64,000 nucleotides of DNA from an uncultured Gemmatimonadaceae bacterium. GTDB taxonomy: Bacteria; Gemmatimonadota; Gemmatimonadetes; Gemmatimonadales; GWC2-71-9. The notes under the pieces were generated by a model. That model saw only the letters and a list, made by a program, of their open reading frames with translations, was not told the DNA's origin and did not search any database. The position numbers were made by a program, and so were the translations under genes. The stretch covers positions 1,019 through 65,018 of the forward strand of contig CAZPER010000012.1 of NCBI GenBank assembly GCA_964585655.1. The letters are read 5' to 3'. Positions 14,701 through 50,664 of this stretch are shown in pieces. The stretch's first letter is position 1, and every line of letters begins with the position of its first letter.

Positions 14701-16440
14701 ATGACCGCCCTCGCCGTCCGATCCGCGCCGCCCCGTTTCCGCCCAACCGGGCTCTGGCTGGGGCTGGCCATCGCGGCATTCGGGACGCTGGCGCTGGGGT
14801 TTGCGACGGGGGCGGCGGCGGGGTGGAGTTCGGCGGAGCGGTGGCTTGCCTTCGGGACGGGCGCCGCGGTGACGACCGGGTTATTCACCGCCGCGGCGCG
14901 GCGCCCGGAGCTCAATCGGCGGCTCCGCCAGGCGCTCGGGATCAACGCCGCCGCCTTCGGGCTCACCGCCGTGAGCTACCTCTACGCGGTGCTCACCGAG
15001 GTGACGCCCCTCCCCGCCGTCAGCGACAGCCTCGACGCCGTCGTGACCCTGCTGACCTACGCCGTGGCCCTGGTGGGGCTGCTGCGGTGGCCGATGACGC
15101 CGCTCCGGGGCGCACGGTGGTGGCACTTCGGGCTCGACGCGGCGATCGGCGCCGGCGGGATGGTGCTGTTCTTCGTGGTGGTGATCACCCTGCCGGGGAC
15201 GGCGGGGACGGTGCCGGCGGACTACCGCCGCTGGGTGATGACCTACGGCGCGGCGCTGCTGATCGACCTGGTGGCGATCAACATCCTCGTGGTGCGGGGG
15301 ATCGCGCTCCCCAGCCGCCGGGCGTTCTGGACCTTCATGTCGGCGCTCCTGCTCGAGATCGTGAGCCTGGTGGTCACCCAGTACCTCGCCATCTCCACCC
15401 CGCCGGGCGCCACGAACTACGGCGCCGACGCGATCTACGTCCTGGTGCAGCTGCTGTACCTCCTCTCCGGGGTGCTGTTCCTGCACGATGCGGTGGGGGA
15501 GCCGTCGCCCACGCCGGCCCCCTCGTGGATGCTCACCTTCAATCCGCTGCCGCTGCTCTCGATCATCGGGGTGGCGGGGCTGGTGATCGTGGAGGGACGG
15601 CACGGGAACGGGAAGCTGGCGGCGCTGGTCGCGGAGTGGCTGGTGGTGCTGGTGCTGCTGCTGGTGGTGCGCTACATGGCGACGGCATGGGAGAACCAGC
15701 AGCTGGTGCGGCAGGAGGCGGCGGCGCAGCGGGAGAAGCTCGAGGCGCTGCGCCGGATCGCGGGAGGGATTTCGCACGAGTTCAACAACATGCTCACCGC
15801 GGTGATCGGGCACGCGGAGCTGGGGCTGTCGGAAGTGGGCCCCTCCTCCCGGGTGAGCGGCGACCTCGAAGGGATCCGCGCCGCCGCGAACCGGGCGGCG
15901 GGGCTCACCCATGAGCTGCTGGCGTTCAGCGGCGGCCAGCCCCGGGGGGACCGGCCGGTGGACCTGGGGGCGCTGGTGCAGGCGCTGGACGCGGAAGTCC
16001 GGGAGGCGGCCGGGGCACGGGTGACGGTGGTGCCGGCGGTCCCGGCCGGTCCGGCGATGATCCGCGGCGATGCGGCCCAGCTGCGGGAGCTGCTGGTGAT
16101 GCTGGCGCGCTACGCCGGGCGCCGGATGCCGGAGGGGGGAACGCTGGAGCTGACGGTCCGGCCGGTGGTGCTCGAGACCCCTCTCGTGGCCGCCGCACTG
16201 GCGGCGCCAGCGGGGCGGTACCTCGCGCTCTTCGTGAGCGACGGCGGGCAGCGGCTCCCCGAGGCCGAGCTGGCGCACATCTTCGAGCCGTTCTTCCCCT
16301 CCGAGGGGAACGCCGGGGTGCCGATGATCGGGCTGGCGGGGGTGTACGGGGTGGTGGCCGCGCACCGCGGCGGGCTCACGGTAGGGAACCGGTTCGAGGG
16401 GGGGATCCGGATCGGGATCTATCTGCCGGTGGGGGAGTAG
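14701..16440 (+). CDS. membrane sensor histidine kinase
   Basis: Multi-TM N-terminus, H-box ISHEFNNMLTAVIGHAEL and a C-terminal HATPase region. The TAG stop is immediately followed by the first 8-nt repeat unit (16441). Confidence 0.85.
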   Translation: MTALAVRSAPPRFRPTGLWLGLAIAAFGTLALGFATGAAAGWSSAERWLAFGTGAAVTTGLFTAAARRPELNRRLRQALGINAAAFGLTAVSYLYAVLTEVTPLPAVSDSLDAVVTLLTYAVALVGLLRWPMTPLRGARWWHFGLDAAIGAGGMVLFFVVVITLPGTAGTVPADYRRWVMTYGAALLIDLVAINILVVRGIALPSRRAFWTFMSALLLEIVSLVVTQYLAISTPPGATNYGADAIYVLVQLLYLLSGVLFLHDAVGEPSPTPAPSWMLTFNPLPLLSIIGVAGLVIVEGRHGNGKLAALVAEWLVVLVLLLVVRYMATAWENQQLVRQEAAAQREKLEALRRIAGGISHEFNNMLTAVIGHAELGLSEVGPSSRVSGDLEGIRAAANRAAGLTHELLAFSGGQPRGDRPVDLGALVQALDAEVREAAGARVTVVPAVPAGPAMIRGDAAQLRELLVMLARYAGRRMPEGGTLELTVRPVVLETPLVAAALAAPAGRYLALFVSDGGQRLPEAELAHIFEPFFPSEGNAGVPMIGLAGVYGVVAAHRGGLTVGNRFEGGIRIGIYLPVGE

Positions 16441-16539
16441 GCGGTAGGGCGGTAGGGCGGTAGGGCGGTAGGGCGGTAGGGCGGTGGGGCGGTAGGGCGG
16501 TGGGGCGGTAGGGCGGTAGGGCGGTCCGTCGTCCTACCG
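16441..16539 (+). repeat. GCGGTAGG 8-nt tandem array (10 units) with a short inverted terminal unit
   Basis: Units were counted directly: 8 x GCGGTAGG and 2 x GCGGTGGG over 16441-16520, then GCGGTCCGTCGTCCTACCG. Confidence 0.9.
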
Positions 16540-17130
16540 ACTCACCCCCGCGATCACCAGCGGCACCTTCCACCCTTCCTGCAAGAAGAAGAACAGCTCG
16601 GAGCGCCGGCGCTCGGAGATGGGGCTGGTGCGGGTGGGGGAGGTGAAGGCTTCGAGGCCGGCGCGGGCGGTCTCGAGCCGGAGCCGGAGCATGTGGAAGG
16701 GGTCGCTGACCAGCAGCACCCGCTTCACCCCGCGGTCCGCGGCCCAGTCCGCCACCGATCGCACCGAGGCCTGGGTGGAGCGCCCCTCCGGCCGCACCAC
16801 CACCGCCGCTTCCGGCACGCCGCGTCCCACCAGGTACTGCCGTCCCACCGTGGCCTCGCTCACCCGGTCTCCCTCGCCGATGCCGCCGGTCACCACCACG
16901 GTGGCCGCGAGCCCTTCCTGGTAGAGCGTGAAGGCATGGTCCAGCCGGGCGCGCAGCACCGGCGACGGCTTGCCGTTGTACTGCGCTGCCCCCAGCACCA
17001 CGATCGCGTCCACCGGCCGCCGCTGGTCCTGCCGGCTGACCGCGAACACGGTGAGGATGGTCGCCAGGTAGAGCAGCGTCGGGGTGAGGACCGCCGCGAG
17101 GCCCAGCCGTCGCGCCCTACGACAGCTCAA
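16534..17130 (-). CDS. YdcF/DUF218 family protein
   Basis: ORF 16534..17211, with TTG at 17130 preferred. It has a TM anchor plus the DUF218 core (VVLGAAQYNGKPSPVLRARLDHA...VSDPFHMLR). Confidence 0.7.
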   Translation of the reverse strand: MSCRRARRLGLAAVLTPTLLYLATILTVFAVSRQDQRRPVDAIVVLGAAQYNGKPSPVLRARLDHAFTLYQEGLAATVVVTGGIGEGDRVSEATVGRQYLVGRGVPEAAVVVRPEGRSTQASVRSVADWAADRGVKRVLLVSDPFHMLRLRLETARAGLEAFTSPTRTSPISERRRSELFFFLQEGWKVPLVIAGVSR

Positions 17131-18508
17131 AACTCTCCCCCTGCCTCGGCTTGTCCACCTGCCGCACCCCCTCCTCCTTGAGGATCTGCACCATCGCGGT
17201 CGCGGCGTCACTCTCCCCGTGGACCACGAAGGCGCGGCGGATAGGGCCGCCCAGCCGGCGGATCCAGGCCCGGAGCTCGTTGCGGTCGGCGTGGGCGGAG
17301 TAGCCGCTGATGGTCTCCACCTCGGCCCGGACCGGCAGCTCCTCGCCGAAGATCTTGACCACCTTGGCGCCCTCCTGGATGCGGCGGCCGAGGGTGTGCT
17401 CCCCCTGGTAGCCGACGAAGAGGACGAGGGTCTTGTGATCGCCGATCCGGTTGCGGAGGTGGTGCAGGATCCGCCCCGACTCCGCCATGCCGCTCGCGGC
17501 GATGATCACCGCGGGGCCGGTGAGGTGGTTGAGTTTCTTCGAGTCCTGCGCGTCGCGGACGTACTGCACCAGGGGGAAGTCGAACAGCGCCGTGGTGTGC
17601 TCGATCATCTGCTCGCCCCGGTCGAAGAGATCGGGGTGCAGCCGGAAGACGGCGGTGGCGTCCACCGCGAGCGGGCTGTCCACGAAGATCGGGACGCCGG
17701 GGATCTTCCCCGCGCGGAACAGGGCGTGGAGGCTGTACACCAGCTCCTGGGTGCGCCCCACCGCGAACGAGGGGATCAGGAGCTTGCCTCCCCGTCCCGC
17801 CACCCGACGGACCAGGTCGCCGAGGTGGGTTTCGGCGTCGGCGATCGATTCGTGGGTGCGGTTGCCGTAGGTGGACTCGATGATCAGCGTGTCCACCGGG
17901 CCGGCGGGGGGGTCGGGGTCCCGGATGATGGGGAGCCCGGTGCGGCCGATGTCGCCGGAGAAGACCAGCCGGTGGGTCGGGGCCTCGGTGATCCGGAGAT
18001 CCACCGACGCCGAGCCGAGGATGTGGCCGGCGTCGGTGAACTCGAAGGCCAGGTGCTTCCGCAGGTGGTGCACCCGGCGGTAGGGGAGCCCGACGATGAG
18101 GTCCTGCACCGCGACGGCGTCGGCCAGGGTGTAGAGCGGCTCGCTCTCCGGCCCCACCTTGCCGCGGCGCGCCAGGAACTCGGCGTCCTTCTCCTGGATG
18201 TGCGCCGCGTCGGGGAGCATGACGGCGCAGAGGTCCCGGGTGCCGGGGGTGGCGAAGATGGGGCCGTGGTAGCCGCGATTCACCAGCAGCGGCAGCCGGC
18301 CGGCATGGTCGATGTGGGCGTGGCTCAGGATCACCGCGTCGAGGGTGCGCGGATCCACCGGCAGGTTGGCGTTGAGCGCGTGGCTCTCGGCCCGGCGCCC
18401 CTGGAAGAGTCCGGCATCAAGCAGCACCCGCGCGCCCGCCGTCTCCAGCAGGTGCATCGAGCCGGTGACTTGTCCGGCGGCGCCATGGAAAGTGATGCGA
18501 TGGGGCAT
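17117..18508 (-). CDS. MBL-fold metallo-hydrolase, beta-CASP RNA-metabolising family
   Basis: HAHIDHAG motif, beta-CASP region and C-terminal RMMBL-like HGE motif. 463 aa. Confidence 0.85.
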   Translation of the reverse strand: MPHRITFHGAAGQVTGSMHLLETAGARVLLDAGLFQGRRAESHALNANLPVDPRTLDAVILSHAHIDHAGRLPLLVNRGYHGPIFATPGTRDLCAVMLPDAAHIQEKDAEFLARRGKVGPESEPLYTLADAVAVQDLIVGLPYRRVHHLRKHLAFEFTDAGHILGSASVDLRITEAPTHRLVFSGDIGRTGLPIIRDPDPPAGPVDTLIIESTYGNRTHESIADAETHLGDLVRRVAGRGGKLLIPSFAVGRTQELVYSLHALFRAGKIPGVPIFVDSPLAVDATAVFRLHPDLFDRGEQMIEHTTALFDFPLVQYVRDAQDSKKLNHLTGPAVIIAASGMAESGRILHHLRNRIGDHKTLVLFVGYQGEHTLGRRIQEGAKVVKIFGEELPVRAEVETISGYSAHADRNELRAWIRRLGGPIRRAFVVHGESDAATAMVQILKEEGVRQVDKPRQGESFELS

Positions 18509-18672
18509 GGGGGCCTAATCTAGGGGTGAATGCGGGGGACGGGCAGGCGGGAGGCTCGCCGGGGCGACTGGGATTCCGCGCGCTGCAGTTCGCCCGGCAA
18601 TCCGGCGGCGCAATCCACCCGTCCGCTCACTGACGCGCGCTCCACCCCAGCCGCCCCGGCACCACTGCGACC

Positions 18673-19599
18673 CTACCGCCCTGCAGCGACCACCACCCAA
18701 TCCGCGACCTCGGGCTCCCCCGCGAAGGTCGCGGTCGGCATGCGCCGGGTCAGCGCCCAGCGGTGCAGCCAGCTGATGCCCGCGGGGCCGGTGTAGGTAT
18801 CCGGCGATTGATAGACCGGGTCTGCCAGGACTTCCGCCAGCGGCGCGAAGCGGTAGCCCCGGGCGCGGAGCATCGCGCAGAGCCGGTCGAAGGTCGCGGC
18901 ATTCAGCGCGTTGGCGTGCAGCAGCAGCACCTGGGGGATCTCCCGCCCGGCGATCGCCACCGACTGTCCCTCGTACCAGGAGACCACCCGCTCCATATAG
19001 TCCAGGTACTCGGTGGCGATGCGGGCCGCCTGGGCGGTGTCCCGCGCCTCCCGTGCCGTGAGATACGCGCTGGCGAAGACGTAGTCGGAGTTGTCGATCG
19101 TGACCGGCGCCACCCGGTAGCCGTGGGCGGCGAGGAAGGCGTGGAGCGAGTCCCGTACCGCCACGCTCCGGCCGGTGTGCAGGAAGGGGTGACGGAAGAA
19201 GCGGGGCGCCTGGTGTCGCGCGGCGAGGAGCGGGCGGAGCTGGCGTTCGCCGCGGAGCAGGTCGGCGGTGAACTCGGTGAGCGTCACCCGGTGGAGATCG
19301 GGGTGGCCCCAGGTGTGGTTGCCGAGCTCGAGCCCGGCGTCGAGCCAGCGCCGGAGCAGCGCCAGCTGCCGCGGGTCGGCGCGGCCGGCGGCGTCCTCGA
19401 GCTGCATCTCGTTCACGAAGCCGATCGCCGGCACCCGGTGCGTCCCGATGGCGCGGAGCAGGCTCGTGGTGACCGACTCGCGGGCGGCGATCGCCACGGC
19501 GCGGCCCGCCACCGGCAGGTCGTCGAAGGTCACCGCGACGGCGCGGCGGGTCGGGTCCTGCGCCGTCGCCAGCGCCAGCAGCAGCGCCAGCCGGATCAT
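18673..19599 (-). CDS. polysaccharide deacetylase family protein (NodB-type)
   Basis: ATG at 19599 ([13 protein letters not shown]...) overlaps the upp stop as ATGA. Motifs TFDD and NHTWGH. Confidence 0.8.
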
Positions 19600-20445: not shown

Positions 20446-20895
20446 GTGAGGGAGGTGCGCATGCGTGGCTGGACGGCGGCGATTGGGATCGGACTGCTGG
20501 CCGGGTGCAGCGGGGGAGCGACGCCGGCCGAAGAGCCGGAAGCGGCCCTCGGCCCGCGGGAGGTAGTGCTCGCCATCGGGGAGCGGGTGGCGGTCCCGGA
20601 GGCGGGGCTGACGGTGGGATTCGAGGGAGTGCCGGAGGATCAGCGCTGCCCGATTCCCTGGCAGTGCTTCGCCGCGGGGAACGCCGATGTGGCGCTCCGG
20701 ATCGATCGCACCGGCTCCGAGCGGCCCGATACCGTGGTCGTGCTGAGTTCCGACCGGCCGGACCTGATCGTCGCGGTGGACGGGGTGCGCTTCGAGCTCC
20801 GGTCCCTGATTCCCCAACCCCGCGCTGAACGGCAGACTCCGCCGGGCGAGTACCGGGCGGGGATCCGGGTCAGCCGGCTGGCCTCCGGGCAGTAA
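20446..20895 (+). CDS. hypothetical lipoprotein
   Basis: Lipobox LLAGC. An alternative ATG at 20461 is possible. No recognisable domain. Confidence 0.5.
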   Translation: MREVRMRGWTAAIGIGLLAGCSGGATPAEEPEAALGPREVVLAIGERVAVPEAGLTVGFEGVPEDQRCPIPWQCFAAGNADVALRIDRTGSERPDTVVVLSSDRPDLIVAVDGVRFELRSLIPQPRAERQTPPGEYRAGIRVSRLASGQ

Positions 20896-20897
20896 AC

Positions 20898-20972
20898 TCA
20901 ACCACAAAGTTCACGAAGCCCACGAAGCGGTCCTGGGATACCCTTCGTGGTCTTCGTGGACTTCGTGGTTGA
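20898..20972. repeat. CACGAAG/CTTCGTG-family palindromic element
   Basis: TCAACCACAAAGTTCACGAAGCCCACGAAGCGG faces CCCTTCGTGGTCTTCGTGGACTTCGTGGTTGA. It lies between convergent lipoprotein genes. Confidence 0.85.
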
Positions 20973-20984
20973 TTCTTGCAGCGC

Positions 20985-21323
20985 CTAACGCAGCGTCAGG
21001 ATCTCCGCCTTGCAGACGAATTCGCCGGCGGGGCAGATGGACGCGACCAGGCGGCCGCGGGTGGAGCCGGAGACGACCAGCTCCGGCGGCTCGGTGAAGT
21101 ACGCGGAATCGGCGGTCAGGGCGGGGGAATCGAAGCGGAGCACGGTGCTGTCCGGCCGCTGGAGGGCCGGCTTCTGCTGGGCGTTGATCCGAACGCCCGG
21201 CGCCGGCTCGAGCCGGAGCCGGGTGCCGCCGGGCACCGGTTCCCGGACCACCGAGAAATAGGGGCTCACCTCGGCGGCGCAGGCGCCGAGGAGGAGCAGG
21301 AGGGCGCAGAGCAGGTTCCGCAT
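20985..21323 (-). CDS. hypothetical lipoprotein
   Basis: Lipobox LLLGAC. 112 aa with no recognisable domain. Confidence 0.5.
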   Translation of the reverse strand: MRNLLCALLLLLGACAAEVSPYFSVVREPVPGGTRLRLEPAPGVRINAQQKPALQRPDSTVLRFDSPALTADSAYFTEPPELVVSGSTRGRLVASICPAGEFVCKAEILTLR

Positions 21324-21434: not shown

Positions 21435-21507
<73 letters not shown>

Positions 21508-26569: not shown

Positions 26570-27238
26570 ATGGTGAAACCCGACTCCGATACCGACAATC
26601 CCCGCTGGCAGCGTCGCCCGACCGAGCGCCGCCGGGAGATTATCGACGCCGCCGCCAAGGTCTTCGGCGAGAGCGGGTACGACTGCGCCACCATCGCCGA
26701 GGTCGCCGAGCGGGCGGGCGTGAGCAGCGGCACGGTGCTCAACTACTTCGGCTCCAAGGGAGACCTCTTCGAGGCCACCCTCGCGGAGCGGTTCCTCACG
26801 GTGGTGGTGGAGAGCGAGGCGCTGACCGCCACCCACCAGGGGAGTTATCGGGAGCTGCTGCACGCGCTCCTCGCCCGGAAGTGGCAGCTGCTCACCGATT
26901 CCGCGACCGCCGACCTGATCCTCTTCGGCCTCGCCAAGGCGAAGACCTTTCCTGAGGCCACCGGCCTCATGTGCCGGGAGATCGGGCAGCGCTACCGCCG
27001 CCTGGTGATGGGGGCGCTGGCCGCCGGGGTCCGGAGCGGCGAGTTCCGCCCCCTCGACCCCGAGGTGCAGGCCCGCCTGCTCGGCGCCGGGCTCGCCGGC
27101 CTGATGCTCGAGGTCAAGCACTTCTCCCGCTTCGACTCGTCCTCCCCCGATGCCGAGACGCTCTTCGCGCAGTTCCTGGCGTCGGTGGATCATGCGCTCG
27201 CGGCGCCGGGGGCGGCGTTTCTGGGAGAGGGATTGTAG
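26570..27238 (+). CDS. TetR/AcrR family transcriptional regulator
   Basis: The ORF track starts at TTG 26558; ATG 26570 is preferred. HTH segment ATIAEVAERAGVSSGTVLNYF. It sits upstream of an RND operon. Confidence 0.85.
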   Translation: MVKPDSDTDNPRWQRRPTERRREIIDAAAKVFGESGYDCATIAEVAERAGVSSGTVLNYFGSKGDLFEATLAERFLTVVVESEALTATHQGSYRELLHALLARKWQLLTDSATADLILFGLAKAKTFPEATGLMCREIGQRYRRLVMGALAAGVRSGEFRPLDPEVQARLLGAGLAGLMLEVKHFSRFDSSSPDAETLFAQFLASVDHALAAPGAAFLGEGL

Positions 27239-27264
27239 GCGGTAGCGACGGTAGCGACGGCAGG
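27236..27264 (+). repeat. GGCGGTAG-family short array (CGGTAGCGA x2)
   Basis: It begins at the TetR stop codon TAG (27236-27238). Confidence 0.7.
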
Positions 27265-47516: not shown

Positions 47517-48443
47517 ATGAAGGAGTGCCCCATGAAGTCTTTCCGTTCCCCCCTGGCCGCCGCCCTGTTCGCGGCGCTGGCGCTCGGACTCGGCGCCTGT
47601 TCCGATAGCAGCGATCCTTCCGGCGGTTCCGCCAACACCCTGTCGCAGGTGCAGGCCAACGACATGAGTTCCGACATCGCCCAGGACCTGGATGAACTCG
47701 CGGAGCTTTCGACGTTCGATGCCTCGAATGGCGTCCCCCTGTCGGCCCAGGCCGCGATCCATGGCGCGCCGCCGGCTCCGTGCGTGACCATTACCCCGAC
47801 GCCCGTAGTGAACAGCGATGGCGACGCGGTGCCGGACTCGGCCCGCTTCACCTTTGACGCCTGCGTCTTCACCCGTGGCAATGGCGCCATGACCGACTCG
47901 CTCGGCGGCACCATCGATTTCATCGACCCGCTGCCGCTGGCCGCGAGCATCGGTGTCCGGCACATCTTCACCAACTTCACCCGGGCCCGGATCAACACCG
48001 TCATGCCGGCGCGGAGCTTCATGGCGGTGCACAACGGCACCCGCGAGTGGGGCGGCAACGCCGACACGCTGGGCCACACGATCACGGGCTTCGAAACCGC
48101 CTGGACCCATCCGAGCGGCCGCACCACCACCAATGAGAAGAACTGGGTCGCCAAGTTCACGGCGACGACGCCGGGGACCATCTCGCTGCTCACCCCGCTC
48201 CCGGCCGGCAGCATCACGGTGAACGGCACCGGTAACTGGACCACGGCAAACCGGACCTGGGCGGTCGCGGTCACCACCGTGACCCCGCTGGCCTACGATC
48301 CGGCCTGCAATGCCGCACCGCGGTTCACCGCCGGCGAGATTACCCTGGTAGTGTCGCGGAACGGCGAGGTGACCAACGTGGACATCGTATTCACGGCGTG
48401 CGGGCAATACACCGTGACGCGGACGCCGGGCGTGGCGGTCTGA
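47517..48443 (+). CDS. hypothetical lipoprotein
   Basis: Lipobox LGLGAC. An alternative ATG at 47532 is possible. No domain recognised. Confidence 0.5.
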   Translation: MKECPMKSFRSPLAAALFAALALGLGACSDSSDPSGGSANTLSQVQANDMSSDIAQDLDELAELSTFDASNGVPLSAQAAIHGAPPAPCVTITPTPVVNSDGDAVPDSARFTFDACVFTRGNGAMTDSLGGTIDFIDPLPLAASIGVRHIFTNFTRARINTVMPARSFMAVHNGTREWGGNADTLGHTITGFETAWTHPSGRTTTNEKNWVAKFTATTPGTISLLTPLPAGSITVNGTGNWTTANRTWAVAVTTVTPLAYDPACNAAPRFTAGEITLVVSRNGEVTNVDIVFTACGQYTVTRTPGVAV

Positions 48444-48505
48444 CGGTAGGGCGGTAGGGGAGGTAAGGCGGTAGGGCGGTAGGGAGAACTCCCCCTACCG
48501 CCCTG
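48444..48505. repeat. GGCGGTAG-family array with short inverted arm
   Basis: CGGTAGGGCGGTAGGGGAGGTAAGGCGGTAGGGCGGTAGGG ... CCCCCTACCGCCCTG. It lies between convergent genes. Confidence 0.85.
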
Positions 48506-49032: not shown

Positions 49033-49064
49033 TACCGCCTTACCGCCTTACCGTCCTACCGCCG
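49033..49064 (-). repeat. GGCGGTAG-family array (4 units, C-rich on the plus strand) overlapping a gene 3' end
   Basis: TACCGCCT TACCGCCT TACCGTCC TACCGCCG. The NDH-2-CNB gene ends inside it. Confidence 0.8.
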
Positions 49065-50664
49065 TGCCGTCCTCGCCCGGCTTCCGCGTGATCGCCTCAC
49101 CGAAGGGCCGGATGGTCTCGCTCAGGGTGCGGGCCTCCTGGCCTCCCACCGCGACCACCTCCACCCGGGTGAGCGCCCGCACCGTGGCGGTGCGGCGGGT
49201 GTTCTGGAACACCGCCATCTCGCCGAAGTGCTGCCCGGCGCCGAGCCGGGCGAGCACCTCGGGGCCGGCGGGTCCCTCGCGGGTGACTTCGACCTCCCCC
49301 TGCCAGATGAGATAGAGCTTCTGCCCCAACTCCCCTTCCCGGACGATCGGCTGGCCCGCCTCGTAGTGTTCCCGGCGCAACCCGAAGGGCTCCCGCACCC
49401 GCACCTCGACGATATCCCGCCCGAGGATCGGAGTGAGGATCCAGTCAAAGAGAATGCGGATCTGCCGTTCGAAGGTGGGGACGAAGTACATGAAGATGGA
49501 GCGCCAGACGATCCACGCCGGGATCCCCGTCAGCTCGATGCCCCACAGCTGGGCGATGGCGCGCCGTCGGCCCAGCCCGCAGGCATCGCCCAGGCCGGTG
49601 AACCGGAACCGCTTCGGCTCCTGGCCCCGGATGCTGCGCAGGATGTTGCGGCCCACCTGGCGACCGGTCATCATCGCGAAGATCGCGAGGGTGGGGCAGG
49701 TGCCACCCTTGGGGTGCGGCACCGCCGCGCAGTCGCCGGCGGCCCAGGTGTTCTCCGCCCCGGGCACGCGGGTGAACTCGTCGGTGACGAGCCGCCCCCG
49801 GTCGTCCCGCTCGTACGGCAGCTGGTTGAGGAGGGGTGAGAGCGCGATGCCGGCCGAGCTGATGATCGTGCGGGTGGCGATCCGCTCGCCGTTGGAGAGC
49901 ACCGCCTCCTCCGGCGTGGCGGCGCTGAGCCGCACCCCCGTCCGCAGGTCCAGCCCGCGGGAGCGGAGGTAGCGCTCGGCGTAGTCCACCAGCTTCGGGT
50001 GTTCCTTCACCAGCTCCGGGAGGATCCGGTCCCCGCTGTGGGCCACGATGACCCGCGACTCGGCCGGGTTGATGCGGGGATACTCCTTCCGCGCCAGGAT
50101 CCGGACGTAGTCCTCCAGCTCCGCCGCTACCTCGATCCCGCCGTAGTTCCCGCCCACGATCACGAAGGTCAGCAGCCGCTGCCGCTCCGCGGGATCGGTC
50201 TCGATCTCCGCCAGCTCCAGCATGGAGAGAATGTGGTTCCGGACCTTGAAGCAGTCCCAGTAGGTCTTGAGCTTGAGCGCGTGCTCCGCCAGGCCGGGAT
50301 AGCGCGACAGGTCGTCAATCGAGCCGAGGGTCACGACCAGGTGGTCGTAGGGGAGCTCGTAGCGCTTGCCGTCCAGGTGGCGGGCGGTGACGATGACCTT
50401 GCGCTCCAGGTCGATCTGCTCGATCTCGGCGTTGTGGAACCGGGCGGGGGGAAACATCCGGCGGGCGGGGCTGGTGATCTGCCCCGGCTGGATCCGGCCG
50501 GTGAGCATCTCCGCGATGAAGCCGTGGAAGGTGTGGAAGTTGTCGCGCCCGATGACGCTGACGTCCACCTCGCCGCGGCGGATGGCGCCGCGGAGGGCGC
50601 GCACGCAGTAGAAGCTGGACCAGCCGCCGCCGAGACAGACCACCCTGGGCACGGTTCGCGTCAT
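49048..50664 (-). CDS. type II NADH dehydrogenase-like FAD/NAD(P) oxidoreductase with C-terminal cyclic-nucleotide-binding domain
   Basis: Two dinucleotide folds (VVCLGGGWSS, FVIVGGNYGGIE). The C-terminal CNB beta-roll has a phosphate-binding cassette (FGEMAVFQNTRRTATVRA). Confidence 0.85.
   Translation of the reverse strand: MTRTVPRVVCLGGGWSSFYCVRALRGAIRRGEVDVSVIGRDNFHTFHGFIAEMLTGRIQPGQITSPARRMFPPARFHNAEIEQIDLERKVIVTARHLDGKRYELPYDHLVVTLGSIDDLSRYPGLAEHALKLKTYWDCFKVRNHILSMLELAEIETDPAERQRLLTFVIVGGNYGGIEVAAELEDYVRILARKEYPRINPAESRVIVAHSGDRILPELVKEHPKLVDYAERYLRSRGLDLRTGVRLSAATPEEAVLSNGERIATRTIISSAGIALSPLLNQLPYERDDRGRLVTDEFTRVPGAENTWAAGDCAAVPHPKGGTCPTLAIFAMMTGRQVGRNILRSIRGQEPKRFRFTGLGDACGLGRRRAIAQLWGIELTGIPAWIVWRSIFMYFVPTFERQIRILFDWILTPILGRDIVEVRVREPFGLRREHYEAGQPIVREGELGQKLYLIWQGEVEVTREGPAGPEVLARLGAGQHFGEMAVFQNTRRTATVRALTRVEVVAVGGQEARTLSETIRPFGEAITRKPGEDGTAVGR

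What the first reader, a model, noticed from the sequence alone, without database searches (positions are those of the whole stretch)
16438..16539. 8-nt GCGGTAGG arrays begin at gene ends, and stop triplets within or flanking the units terminate several ORFs
**Read directly**
- The histidine kinase ends at TAG 16438-16440, which abuts the first of 10 tandem 8-nt units (16441).
- The convergent DUF218 gene ends at CGG-TAG (16534-16536, minus strand) in the short inverted terminal unit of the same element.
- The TetR gene ends at TAG 27236-27238, which abuts a CGGTAGCGA x2 array.
- The deacetylase ends at GGG-CGG-TAG (18673-18675, minus strand) in an isolated CAGGGCGGTAGGG unit.
- The NDH-2-CNB gene reads two units into the 49033-49064 array (GCG GTA GGA CGG TAA) before stopping.
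- The lipoprotein stop (48441-48443) abuts another array.

**Arithmetic.** The period is 8, which is 2 mod 3. Three successive units therefore place TAG in all three frames on the G-rich strand. The complementary CCTACCGC strand has no stops.

**Inference.** These arrays act as three-frame translational barriers. The extreme C-termini of several proteins are probably element-derived, either through insertion into or next to gene 3' ends or through a target preference for stop regions.
Basis: partly seen in the sequence, partly recalled or inferred. Interest (0 to 1): 0.5.

Follow-up and report, generated by a model that had tools for sequence, protein, structure and literature searches.

The report
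Stop-codon-bearing repeat arrays at gene ends
In this soil bacterium (Gemmatimonadales), short 8-base repeats that contain the stop signal TAG sit directly against the ends of about 45 genes and often supply the gene's stop codon and last few amino acids, but this looks like a side effect of a fast-changing class of repeat elements that follow genes, not a purpose-built translation barrier.

Summary
All six cited junctions are as described, and the pattern holds genome-wide.

- **Position:** 45 of 58 GGCGGTAG/GGCGGTAA arrays begin within -24 to +10 nt of a same-sense stop, against 4.2 expected.
- **Register:** the stop lies in the array's register, or one base off it, in 30 of 38 cases.
- **Read-in:** 20 genes read 1-3 units into an array. 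AVGR is the commonest C-terminal tetrapeptide in the proteome.

- **Array-derived ends:** NDH-2, a Ser/Thr kinase, and probably the histidine kinase and DUF218.
- **Native stops:** the lipoprotein TGA, and a convergent gene pair on contig C83 whose TAG stops persist across the genus whatever repeat follows.

A selected "barrier" is unlikely. Stop-free repeat families show the same position and polarity. Sister genomes carry stop-free units such as GACGGCAG or GGGCGATT at several of the same sites.

The arrays are one family of hypervariable 7-9-nt tandem-repeat elements. They are often the arms of hairpins, and the larger copies enclose a PF05635 (23S-rRNA-IVS protein) gene.

The closest precedent is the GGGNATC repeats of Xanthomonas and Nostoc (PMC4692102). 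This scan has noted the class before in other Gemmatimonadota genomes. I rate it a new variant of a known kind.

The parts
14701..16440 (+). Histidine kinase gene. Its stop TAG (16438-16440) is one base out of register with the array (TAG GCGG TAG GGCGG).
   Evidence: ORF. HisKA and HATPase_c matched to residue 577 of 579. Junction read.
16440..16525 (+). (GGCGGTAG)x10.8 tandem array. The G-rich strand, which carries TAG, is the sense strand of the kinase. It fills the whole gap between the two convergent genes.
   Evidence: TRF score 158 with 94% matches. Nine TAGs in three frames. It folds no better than shuffled sequence, z = -0.3 and +0.6.
16533..16539 (-). Single inverted unit (CCTACCG on the + strand, CGGTAGG on the - strand) that holds the DUF218 stop TAG at 16534-16536.
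   Evidence: In G219 and G008 the same gene ends TCG AAA TAG followed by a different repeat, so the last two or three codons are replaced in G000.
16534..17211 (-). DUF218 gene. The start is uncertain (17130 or 17211).
   Evidence: PF02698, E = 6e-28.
18672..18684 (-). Isolated unit CAGGGCGGTAGGG holding the deacetylase stop (18673-18675). It looks like a collapsed array.
   Evidence: G219 and G008 have full arrays at this point, (GGCGGTTG)n after TAA and (GACGGCAG)n after TAG, with the stop in register.
27236..27260 (+). TetR stop TAG followed by the 9-nt array (CGGTAGCGA)x2.3.
   Evidence: G219 has the same stop with 5 copies.
48441..48503 (+). Lipoprotein-like ORF stop TGA (48441-48443), a 5-unit GGCGGTAG-type array (48444-48484) and an inverted unit CCCTACCGCCC (48493-48503).
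   Evidence: The TGA is conserved in G008, where the array is (GGACGGCA)n, so this stop is native.
49033..49064 (-). Array read by the NDH-2/cNMP-binding gene (49048-50643, -). The tail ...TAVGR is array-coded and the stop TAA at 49048-49050 lies inside the array.
   Evidence: The tail is conserved in G219 and G008 and absent from the array-less G012 orthologue.

Best explanation
**What the arrays are**
- The GCGGTAGG arrays are one unit-family of a genome-wide class of hypervariable tandem-repeat elements with 7-9-nt units.
- These elements occupy the space directly after stop codons. The G-rich strand is always in the direction of the gene.
- Often a G-rich arm is followed by an inverted C-rich arm around a central hairpin. 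Full-size copies enclose a small PF05635 gene.

**How they change (inferred)**
- The arms expand, contract and are replaced quickly.
- The inferred mechanisms are replication slippage, template switching between arms, and exchange between arrays or re-seeding from the gene-carrying copies.
- On the gene side, the arms are limited only by selection on the protein.

**Why this family supplies stops**
- This unit contains TAG and its period is 8. Any fusion of an ORF into the array therefore ends within three units (24 nt).
- Such fusions are nearly harmless, so this family, unlike stop-free families, often overruns the gene end and supplies the stop and the last 1-7 residues (R, VGR, AVGR).
- The three-frame stop property is a passive consequence that makes these arrays tolerable. 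It is not a selected barrier.

**Status of each claim**
- Shown: position, polarity, register, array-coded tails and rapid turnover.
- Inferred: the mutational mechanisms, and any role in RNA 3'-end formation.
For: **Position and polarity**
- About 64% of period-7/8 arrays are mostly intergenic, against 9% of the genome.
- G-sense 152 against C-sense 12 near stops.
- For TAG-unit arrays the stop lies inside the array in 39 of 63 cases. For stop-free units it does so in 17 of 165.

**Register and tails**
- AVGR is the top C-terminal tetrapeptide and 24 proteins end in VGR.

**Turnover at fixed positions between genomes 90-95% identical in DNA**
- At the kinase site: GGCGGTAG x10 in G000, GGGCGGAT/GGGCGATT in G219 and GGGCGATT in G008.
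- Mean ungapped identity of the 60 nt after the stop is 0.42 beside arrays and 0.70 elsewhere, while the last 10 codons are equally conserved.
- At one convergent junction, nearly every one of 19 genomes has a different unit family around a partly conserved central hairpin.
- Counts of (GGCGGTAG)3 are 89, 22 and 3 in G000, G008 and G219. Counts of (GACGGCAG)3 are 3, 137 and 86.
- An indel inside an array shifts the tail to the next in-frame stop: RTVGR* becomes KTVGGVRR*.

**Link to PF05635 genes**
- All 3 PF05635 genes of G000, and most of the 16 copies examined in other genomes, lie between inverted arrays. In G145 and G053 these are GGCGGTAG arms that start at the upstream gene's TAG.
Against: - Only 15 of 45 stop-adjacent TAG-unit arrays have an inverted partner.
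- The window's own array folds no better than shuffled sequence. The hairpin picture therefore does not cover every copy.
- In-situ slippage alone does not explain two results:
  - dozens of dispersed loci in one genome share one unit while a sister genome shares another;
  - TAG is enriched at stops next to stop-free families, with 58% TAG beside arrays and 30% elsewhere (odds ratio 3.3, p = 1.5e-17).
- No PF05635 gene with GGCGGTAG arms was found in G000 itself.
Confidence: 0.5

Rival explanations
1. The arrays are the arms of a mobile, foldback-type element. The autonomous form carries the PF05635 gene and the gene-less forms resemble MITEs. The element inserts site-specifically at or next to stop codons, preferring TAG, so the stops mark its target site or its termini.
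For: - PF05635 genes are enclosed by inverted arrays of the genome's dominant family: G145 and G053 with GGCGGTAG arms, G008 and G219 with GACGGCAG arms.
- Which family dominates is specific to each genome.
- A whole 112-nt element is present in G000 and absent in G008.
- In about 17 junctions the array begins exactly at the T of TAG, after unrelated coding sequence.
- TAG is enriched beside all families.
Against: - No Y1 or RAYT transposase was found in G000.
- The empty site shows no clean target duplication.
- The empty site in G008 is a derived deletion, because almost all other genomes of the genus are occupied at that locus.
- Copy number varies in place, and some arrays show gradients of one-base unit variants.
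- PF05635 proteins have no known transposition activity. This last point rests on my own knowledge.
Confidence: 0.2
2. The arrays are functional nucleic-acid structures or protein-binding sites, such as G-quadruplexes in the non-template DNA strand or in the mRNA just after the stop. Their position next to the stop is selected for 3'-end formation or for coupling to translation termination. The TAG content is incidental.
For: - GGG-N5-GGG repeats satisfy the G4 motif.
- Median copy number is about 4.5, close to the four-unit preference reported for Xanthomonas and Nostoc repeats that form G4 in vitro (PMC4692102).
- The strict G-sense polarity applies to all families.
- Many copies have no hairpin partner.
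Against: - Several abundant families have only GG runs (CGGCGGCT, GACGGCAG).
- TRF's score threshold truncates the copy-number distribution at about 3, so the four-unit preference is not established here.
- There are no structural or expression data.
Confidence: 0.15
3. The arrays are maintained because they act as three-frame translational barriers that stop read-through or frameshifted ribosomes at gene ends.
For: - TAG occurs in all three frames on the sense strand only.
- 45 of 58 arrays abut gene ends in that orientation.
Against: - Stop-free families have identical placement and polarity.
- The sister genomes G008 and G219 have stop-free units at several of the same loci.
- The family is patchy even within the genus, with no hits in many genomes.
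- A single in-frame stop already terminates translation efficiently. This last point is general knowledge.
Confidence: 0.08
4. The pattern is an artefact: any ORF running into a TAG-rich repeat must end there, or the arrays are misassembled.
For: - ORF ends are defined by stops, so spurious ORFs would also end at the arrays.
- The arrays break contigs in this draft genome.
Against: - The abutting genes have strong coding scores and Pfam domains.
- Their orthologues end at the same junctions in independent assemblies.
- Stop-free families show the same polarity.
Confidence: 0.02

Closest known systems
G-rich heptamer SSR arrays of Xanthomonas (GGGAATC) and Nostoc PCC 7120 (GGGGAYT), Rehm et al. 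2015, PLoS One, PMC4692102
   Same: - Head-to-tail G-rich units of non-triplet period.
- Strong excess in non-coding DNA.
- G-rich strand on the coding strand within 0-50 bp of the stop, or overlapping it.
- Convergent inverted pairs.
- Length and sequence differ between close relatives while the position is kept.
- Function unknown.
   Different: - The period here is 8.
- Dozens of unit families coexist in one genome.
- The dominant family contains TAG and supplies stops and C-terminal residues.
- The family found at orthologous sites differs between sister genomes.
- The larger copies enclose a PF05635 gene.
Intervening-sequence (IVS) elements of 23S rRNA genes that carry a PF05635 ORF inside a long inverted-repeat stem. 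The description of these elements rests on my own knowledge and the Pfam family name.
   Same: A small four-helix-bundle PF05635 gene sits in the loop of a long stem formed by inverted repeats.
   Different: - Here the elements follow protein-coding genes and are not inside rRNA.
- The stems are tandem 7-8-nt arrays.
- Most copies, including all those in the window, carry no gene.
- Excision by RNase III was not tested.
REP/REPIN elements with RAYT transposases, and REP sequences close to stop codons. The description rests on my own knowledge; the literature search did not retrieve the primary paper.
   Same: - Abundant extragenic palindromic repeats at gene 3' ends.
- Families are specific to a genome.
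- Close proximity to stop codons.
   Different: - No RAYT (PF01797) is present in this genome.
- The units are tandem 8-mers rather than 20-40-nt palindromes.
Cyanobacterial STRR heptamer repeats and the TAACTGA repeats of Beggiatoaceae (PMC4679880)
   Same: - Intergenic tandem heptamers of unknown function.
- The TAACTGA unit also contains stop triplets.
   Different: - TAACTGA arrays lie just upstream of start codons.
- They are AT-rich and belong to a single family.

Membership tests
G-rich 6-9-nt SSR arrays at gene ends (Rehm et al. 2015 type) | Tandem head-to-tail G-rich units of non-triplet period, over-represented in non-coding DNA | tested here: met
   The period is 8, with 10.8 copies in the window array. 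296 of 455 period-8 arrays are mostly intergenic, against 9% non-coding DNA in the genome.
G-rich 6-9-nt SSR arrays at gene ends (Rehm et al. 2015 type) | G-rich strand on the coding strand within 50 bp of the stop, or overlapping it | tested here: met
   152 G-sense against 12 C-sense arrays lie near stops. 45 of 58 arrays of this family abut a stop.
G-rich 6-9-nt SSR arrays at gene ends (Rehm et al. 2015 type) | G-quadruplex formation and a preference for four units | tested here: inconclusive
   The G3N5 motif is present and the median is 4.5 copies. TRF's threshold truncates the distribution. Folding into G4 cannot be tested with these tools.
G-rich 6-9-nt SSR arrays at gene ends (Rehm et al. 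2015 type) | Position kept but length and sequence variable between close relatives | tested here: met
   Comparisons of G000, G008 and G219.
REP/REPIN-RAYT system | A Y1 (RAYT) transposase gene in the genome, flanked by the repeats | tested here: not met
   PF01797 has no match in G000, which is 95.8% complete. The positive controls did match.
MITE / transposon-derived foldback element | Terminal inverted repeats with target-site duplication at an empty-versus-filled site | tested here: inconclusive
   Inverted arms are present. The one empty site (G008, C83 locus) shows TAG-ACGC-CTA with no clean duplication, and it is a derived deletion.
IVS-type element carrying PF05635 | PF05635 ORF enclosed by a long inverted-repeat stem | tested here: met
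   Met for the larger copies. All 3 genes in G000 are enclosed, with arms of other unit families. GGCGGTAG arms enclose the gene in G145 and G053. Not met for the window's own arrays, which carry no gene.
IVS-type element carrying PF05635 | Location inside 23S rRNA and excision by RNase III | not tested
   The copies seen follow protein genes.
Intrinsic (Rho-independent) terminator | Stable GC-rich hairpin followed by a U-tract | tested here: not met
   The window element folds no better than shuffles (z = -0.3 and +0.6) and has no T-run. Other loci do have a central GC hairpin.
Any curated RNA family (Rfam) | Match at gathering score | tested here: not met
   The only hit in the window is a tRNA at 21435-21507.

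The most novel reading that the evidence does not exclude
The arrays are the working ends of an active element system in which a PF05635 (Avd-like) protein recognises its own 7-8-nt repeat unit. This system copies or converts arrays at many gene ends at once. A change of the dominant unit, for example between GGCGGTAG and GACGGCAG in sister species, would then rewrite the 3' ends of dozens of genes and, with TAG-bearing units, their stop codons and C-termini.
Probability: 0.2. Interest if true: 0.8.

Novelty: new variant of a known kind. Interest (0 to 1): 0.5.

Why it matters
- A non-coding repeat class can routinely redefine where proteins end. About 20-30 genes in one genome carry repeat-coded tails or stops, and the junctions change between species that are only 5-10% diverged.
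- This matters for annotating Gemmatimonadota genomes. C-terminal residues such as AVGR are repeat-derived, and contigs break at these arrays.
- It also provides a tractable system for the unresolved question of what G-rich 7-9-nt repeats after stop codons do, and how they spread.
- The link to PF05635 genes and the genome-specific switches of unit family give concrete hypotheses to test.

Tried and rejected
- **Rfam:** no family matches the arrays.
- **RAYT:** none found.
- **Hairpin or terminator reading of the window's own array:** rejected, because it folds no better than shuffled sequence.
- **Collapsed-array footprints as the cause of the genome's 30% TAG usage:** not supported. TAG stops away from arrays show no G-rich or array-like context.
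- **Array-less relatives that keep the same TAG as proof that the stop is native (C83):** weakened. The genus-wide view shows that the empty site in G008 is a derived deletion. The TAG is nonetheless kept across many unit families, so I still count it as native.
- **Seeding of the array from each gene's own stop region:** rejected as a general origin, because 50 or more loci share one unit.
- **My first greedy gene caller:** too crude. It was replaced.
- **DNA-level synteny searches:** those for contigs C27 and C89 gave little usable orthology.
- **Cognate pairing of PF05635 proteins with arm units:** only suggestive. An 8-mer-armed clade separates from a 7-mer-armed clade, but two GGCGGTAG-armed copies are only 59% identical, and relatedness confounds the comparison.
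Full report
**Check of the observation**

The window is G000:C12:1019-65018 of a 4.13-Mb, 70.8% GC draft genome in 195 contigs. Earlier notes of this scan place it in the Gemmatimonadales.

- The histidine kinase ORF (14701-16440, +) carries HisKA and HATPase_c. The HATPase_c match runs to residue 577 of 579. The ORF ends at TAG 16438-16440.
- TRF reports (GGCGGTAG)x10.8 at 16440-16525.
- The + strand of 16438-16539 holds nine TAGs spread over all three frames. The - strand holds a single stop, 16534-16536, which ends the DUF218 ORF inside the inverted unit CCTACCG.
- The TetR, deacetylase, lipoprotein-like and NDH-2/cNMP junctions were also read and their gene identities checked.

**Genome-wide picture**

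TRF on the whole genome finds hundreds of period-7 and period-8 arrays in many unit families. GGCGGTAG is the commonest octamer, with 50 arrays, plus 8 of the GGCGGTAA variant.

About 64% of these arrays lie mostly in non-coding DNA, although only 9% of the genome is non-coding. I called genes with my own codon-log-odds caller, which gave 3,699 genes.
- For all period-7/8 arrays, 152 have a stop codon within -24..+10 nt of the array start when read on the G-rich strand. Only 12 do when read on the C-rich strand (p = 5e-32).
- Random placement in non-coding DNA gives 40.5 +/- 6.2.
- For the TAG/TAA-unit family the figures are 45 of 58 observed against 4.2 +/- 2.0 expected.

Polarity and adjacency are therefore properties of the whole class, including families with no stop triplet. 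What is special to the TAG-unit family is overlap with the ORF. The stop lies inside the array in 39 of 63 cases, against 17 of 165 for stop-free units.

**Junction anatomy**

- Of 38 junctions with a definable register, the gene's stop is in register with the array's TAGs in 21. It is one base off (TAG GCGG TAG GGCGG, as at the kinase) in 9. About 9.5 would be expected for these two phases together.
- Twenty of 45 genes read one to three array-like units before stopping. In 25 the stop is the first array-like triplet or precedes the array.
- The array-coded tails are visible in the proteome. AVGR is the commonest C-terminal tetrapeptide, with 10 proteins against 5 for the next commonest. Twenty-four proteins end in VGR, most of them long genes with high coding scores.
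- Stops beside arrays are TAG in 58% of cases, against 30% elsewhere (odds ratio 3.3, p = 1.5e-17). This enrichment also holds for stop-free families. I cannot fully explain it. In-register G-to-A variants of the first unit (TGGGCG to TAGGCG) are one visible source.

**Orthologue tests**

Two genomes of the same genus, G008 and G219, are 90-95% identical to G000 in DNA over syntenic stretches.

*Junctions where the gene end changes with the array, or reads into it*
- **Kinase.** G000 ends ...PVGE-TAG followed by (GGCGGTAG)10. G219 ends ...PVG-TGA, with the TGA inside a variant first unit GGGTGATT of a GGGCGGAT/GGGCGATT array. G008 ends ...PAVE-TAG followed by (GGGCGATT)n. More distant orthologues without arrays end 2-10 residues after the conserved YLP motif, with TGA.
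- **DUF218.** It ends TCG AAA TAG in G219 and G008 but AGT CGG TAG in G000. That is a replacement of the last codons, not point change.
- **NDH-2.** It ends ...AITRKPGEDGTAVGR* in G000 and G008, and ...TAAGR* in G219. The array-less G012 orthologue ends ...AITRES*.
- **Ser/Thr-kinase/TPR gene that runs off the window end (G000:C12:62224-65454).**
  - It ends ...LAAEPVGR* (G008 ...LAGEPVGR*) in G000, G219 and G008. Orthologues without a GGCGGTAG-type array (G001, G006, G012, G145, G227, G009, G119, G053) end at ...LAGE* or at most a few residues beyond it.
  - The repeat after the stop has since changed family in G219 and G008 while the coded units persist.
- **An indel inside an array.** It shifts a tail from RTVGR* to KTVGGVRR*, using the next in-frame stop.

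*Junctions with a native stop*
- The lipoprotein TGA is conserved next to a different family.
- The TetR TAG is conserved while the array's copy number differs, 2 against 5.
- At a convergent pair on contig C83, both TAG stops are kept in most of 19 genomes, whatever repeat family follows. They are also kept in G008, where the whole 112-nt element is missing. Genus-wide occupancy of the locus shows this is a derived deletion.

Over 102 orthologous gene ends, stop position and the last ten codons are as conserved beside arrays as elsewhere. The 60 nt after the stop are far less conserved beside arrays, at 0.42 against 0.70 ungapped identity.

**What the arrays are**

- At the C83 junction nearly every genome has a G-rich array, a central GC-rich hairpin (partly conserved) and the inverted C-rich array. 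The unit differs from genome to genome, and both arms change together.
- Only 15 of 45 stop-adjacent TAG-unit arrays have such a partner. The window's own array has just one inverted unit and folds no better than shuffled sequence.
- The family is patchy. (GGCGGTAG)3 occurs in 15 of 201 genomes sampled from the phylum, and in quantity only in some genomes of this genus.
- Among the three close relatives the dominant unit flips. GGCGGTAG counts are 89, 22 and 3 in G000, G008 and G219. GACGGCAG counts are 3, 137 and 86. This is hard to explain by independent slippage at each locus.

- All three PF05635 (23S-rRNA-IVS protein) genes of G000 lie between a G-rich array upstream and its inverted C-rich array downstream. 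Each has a different unit family.
- In other genomes such genes are enclosed by that genome's dominant family. The arms are GGCGGTAG in G145 and G053, starting at the upstream gene's TAG, and GACGGCAG in G008 and G219.
- A motif GGTTGA-n-TTGGTTGA precedes the gene.
- No RAYT transposase is present and no Rfam family matches.

**Interpretation**

The most economical reading is that the arrays are the arms, or remnants of arms, of hypervariable elements that settle directly after stop codons. The TAG-bearing octamer can overrun gene ends because it closes every frame within 24 nt.

The barrier property is real as arithmetic and is used in practice, but nothing indicates that it is selected.
- Stop-free families behave identically.
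- Sister genomes carry stop-free units (GACGGCAG, GGGCGATT) at several of the same sites.

How the elements come to lie exactly at the stop remains open. Three possibilities stand:
- targeted insertion;
- microhomology-mediated loss of the spacer between a native TAGG and an array TAGG;
- selection for a function next to the terminating ribosome.

**Comparison with what is known**

Rehm et al. 2015 (PMC4692102) described G-rich GGGNATC heptamer arrays in Xanthomonas and Nostoc. These lie on the coding strand within 50 bp of the stop or overlap it. They form convergent inverted pairs, show a four-unit preference and G4 formation in vitro, vary between close species and have no known function.

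The present case shares those features and adds four things.
- An 8-nt TAG-bearing unit supplies stops and tails.
- Many families coexist in one genome.
- The dominant family flips between sister genomes.
- The elements are linked to PF05635 genes.

This scan has already noted the same class in at least eight other Gemmatimonadota or Acidobacteria genomes. One of those was a heptamer with all-frame stops, judged a by-product. My tests here agree with that.

**Limits**

- Gene calls are heuristic.
- The assemblies are drafts that break at the arrays.
- Polarity of change was inferred from few genomes.
- No RNA or protein data were available.

Noticed in passing
G000:C4:12964-13254 (-), G000:C4:39108-39404 (+), G000:C50:229-519 (+); outside the window: Each of the genome's three PF05635 (23S-rRNA-IVS protein, Avd-like) genes sits between a long G-rich tandem array upstream and its inverted C-rich array downstream. 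Each has a different unit family. A motif GGTTGA-n-TTGGTTGA lies about 40 nt before the start codon.
   Followed up: partly
Whole genomes G000, G008 and G219: Three genomes 90-95% identical in DNA differ sharply in their dominant repeat unit. (GGCGGTAG)3 gives 89, 22 and 3 hits. (GACGGCAG)3 gives 3, 137 and 86 hits. The differences often occur at orthologous gene ends, which implies some genome-wide homogenising or spreading process.
   Followed up: partly
window 20896-20984, between the ORF 20446-20895 (+) and the ORF 20985-21323 (-): A hairpin built of CACGAAG-type 9-mers is replaced in G008 by one built of CCGCCAAGA-type 9-mers. Both arms changed together and the flanking genes are conserved.
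   Followed up: partly
G000:C83:8068-8185 compared with G008:C168 (L133): A 112-nt composite element (array, central hairpin GCGACCCTCCGG...CCGGAGGGTCGC, inverted array) lies between two convergent TAG stops in G000. It is missing in G008, which has only TAG-ACGC-CTA. The other 17 genomes examined in the genus are occupied there by elements of many different unit families.
   Followed up: yes
G000 proteome: AVGR is the most frequent C-terminal tetrapeptide, with 10 proteins. Twenty-four proteins end in VGR, some with only one or two remnant units that TRF does not call as arrays.
   Followed up: partly
G000:C12:65441-65583, just beyond the window end: A Ser/Thr-kinase/TPR gene reads two units into a (GGCGGTAG)6 array. 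That array runs directly into a second array of (CGGGACGR)n up to the contig end. Arrays of different families are often concatenated, and contigs end in them.
   Followed up: partly
window 21435-21507 (+): A tRNA gene is the only Rfam match in the window.
   Followed up: no
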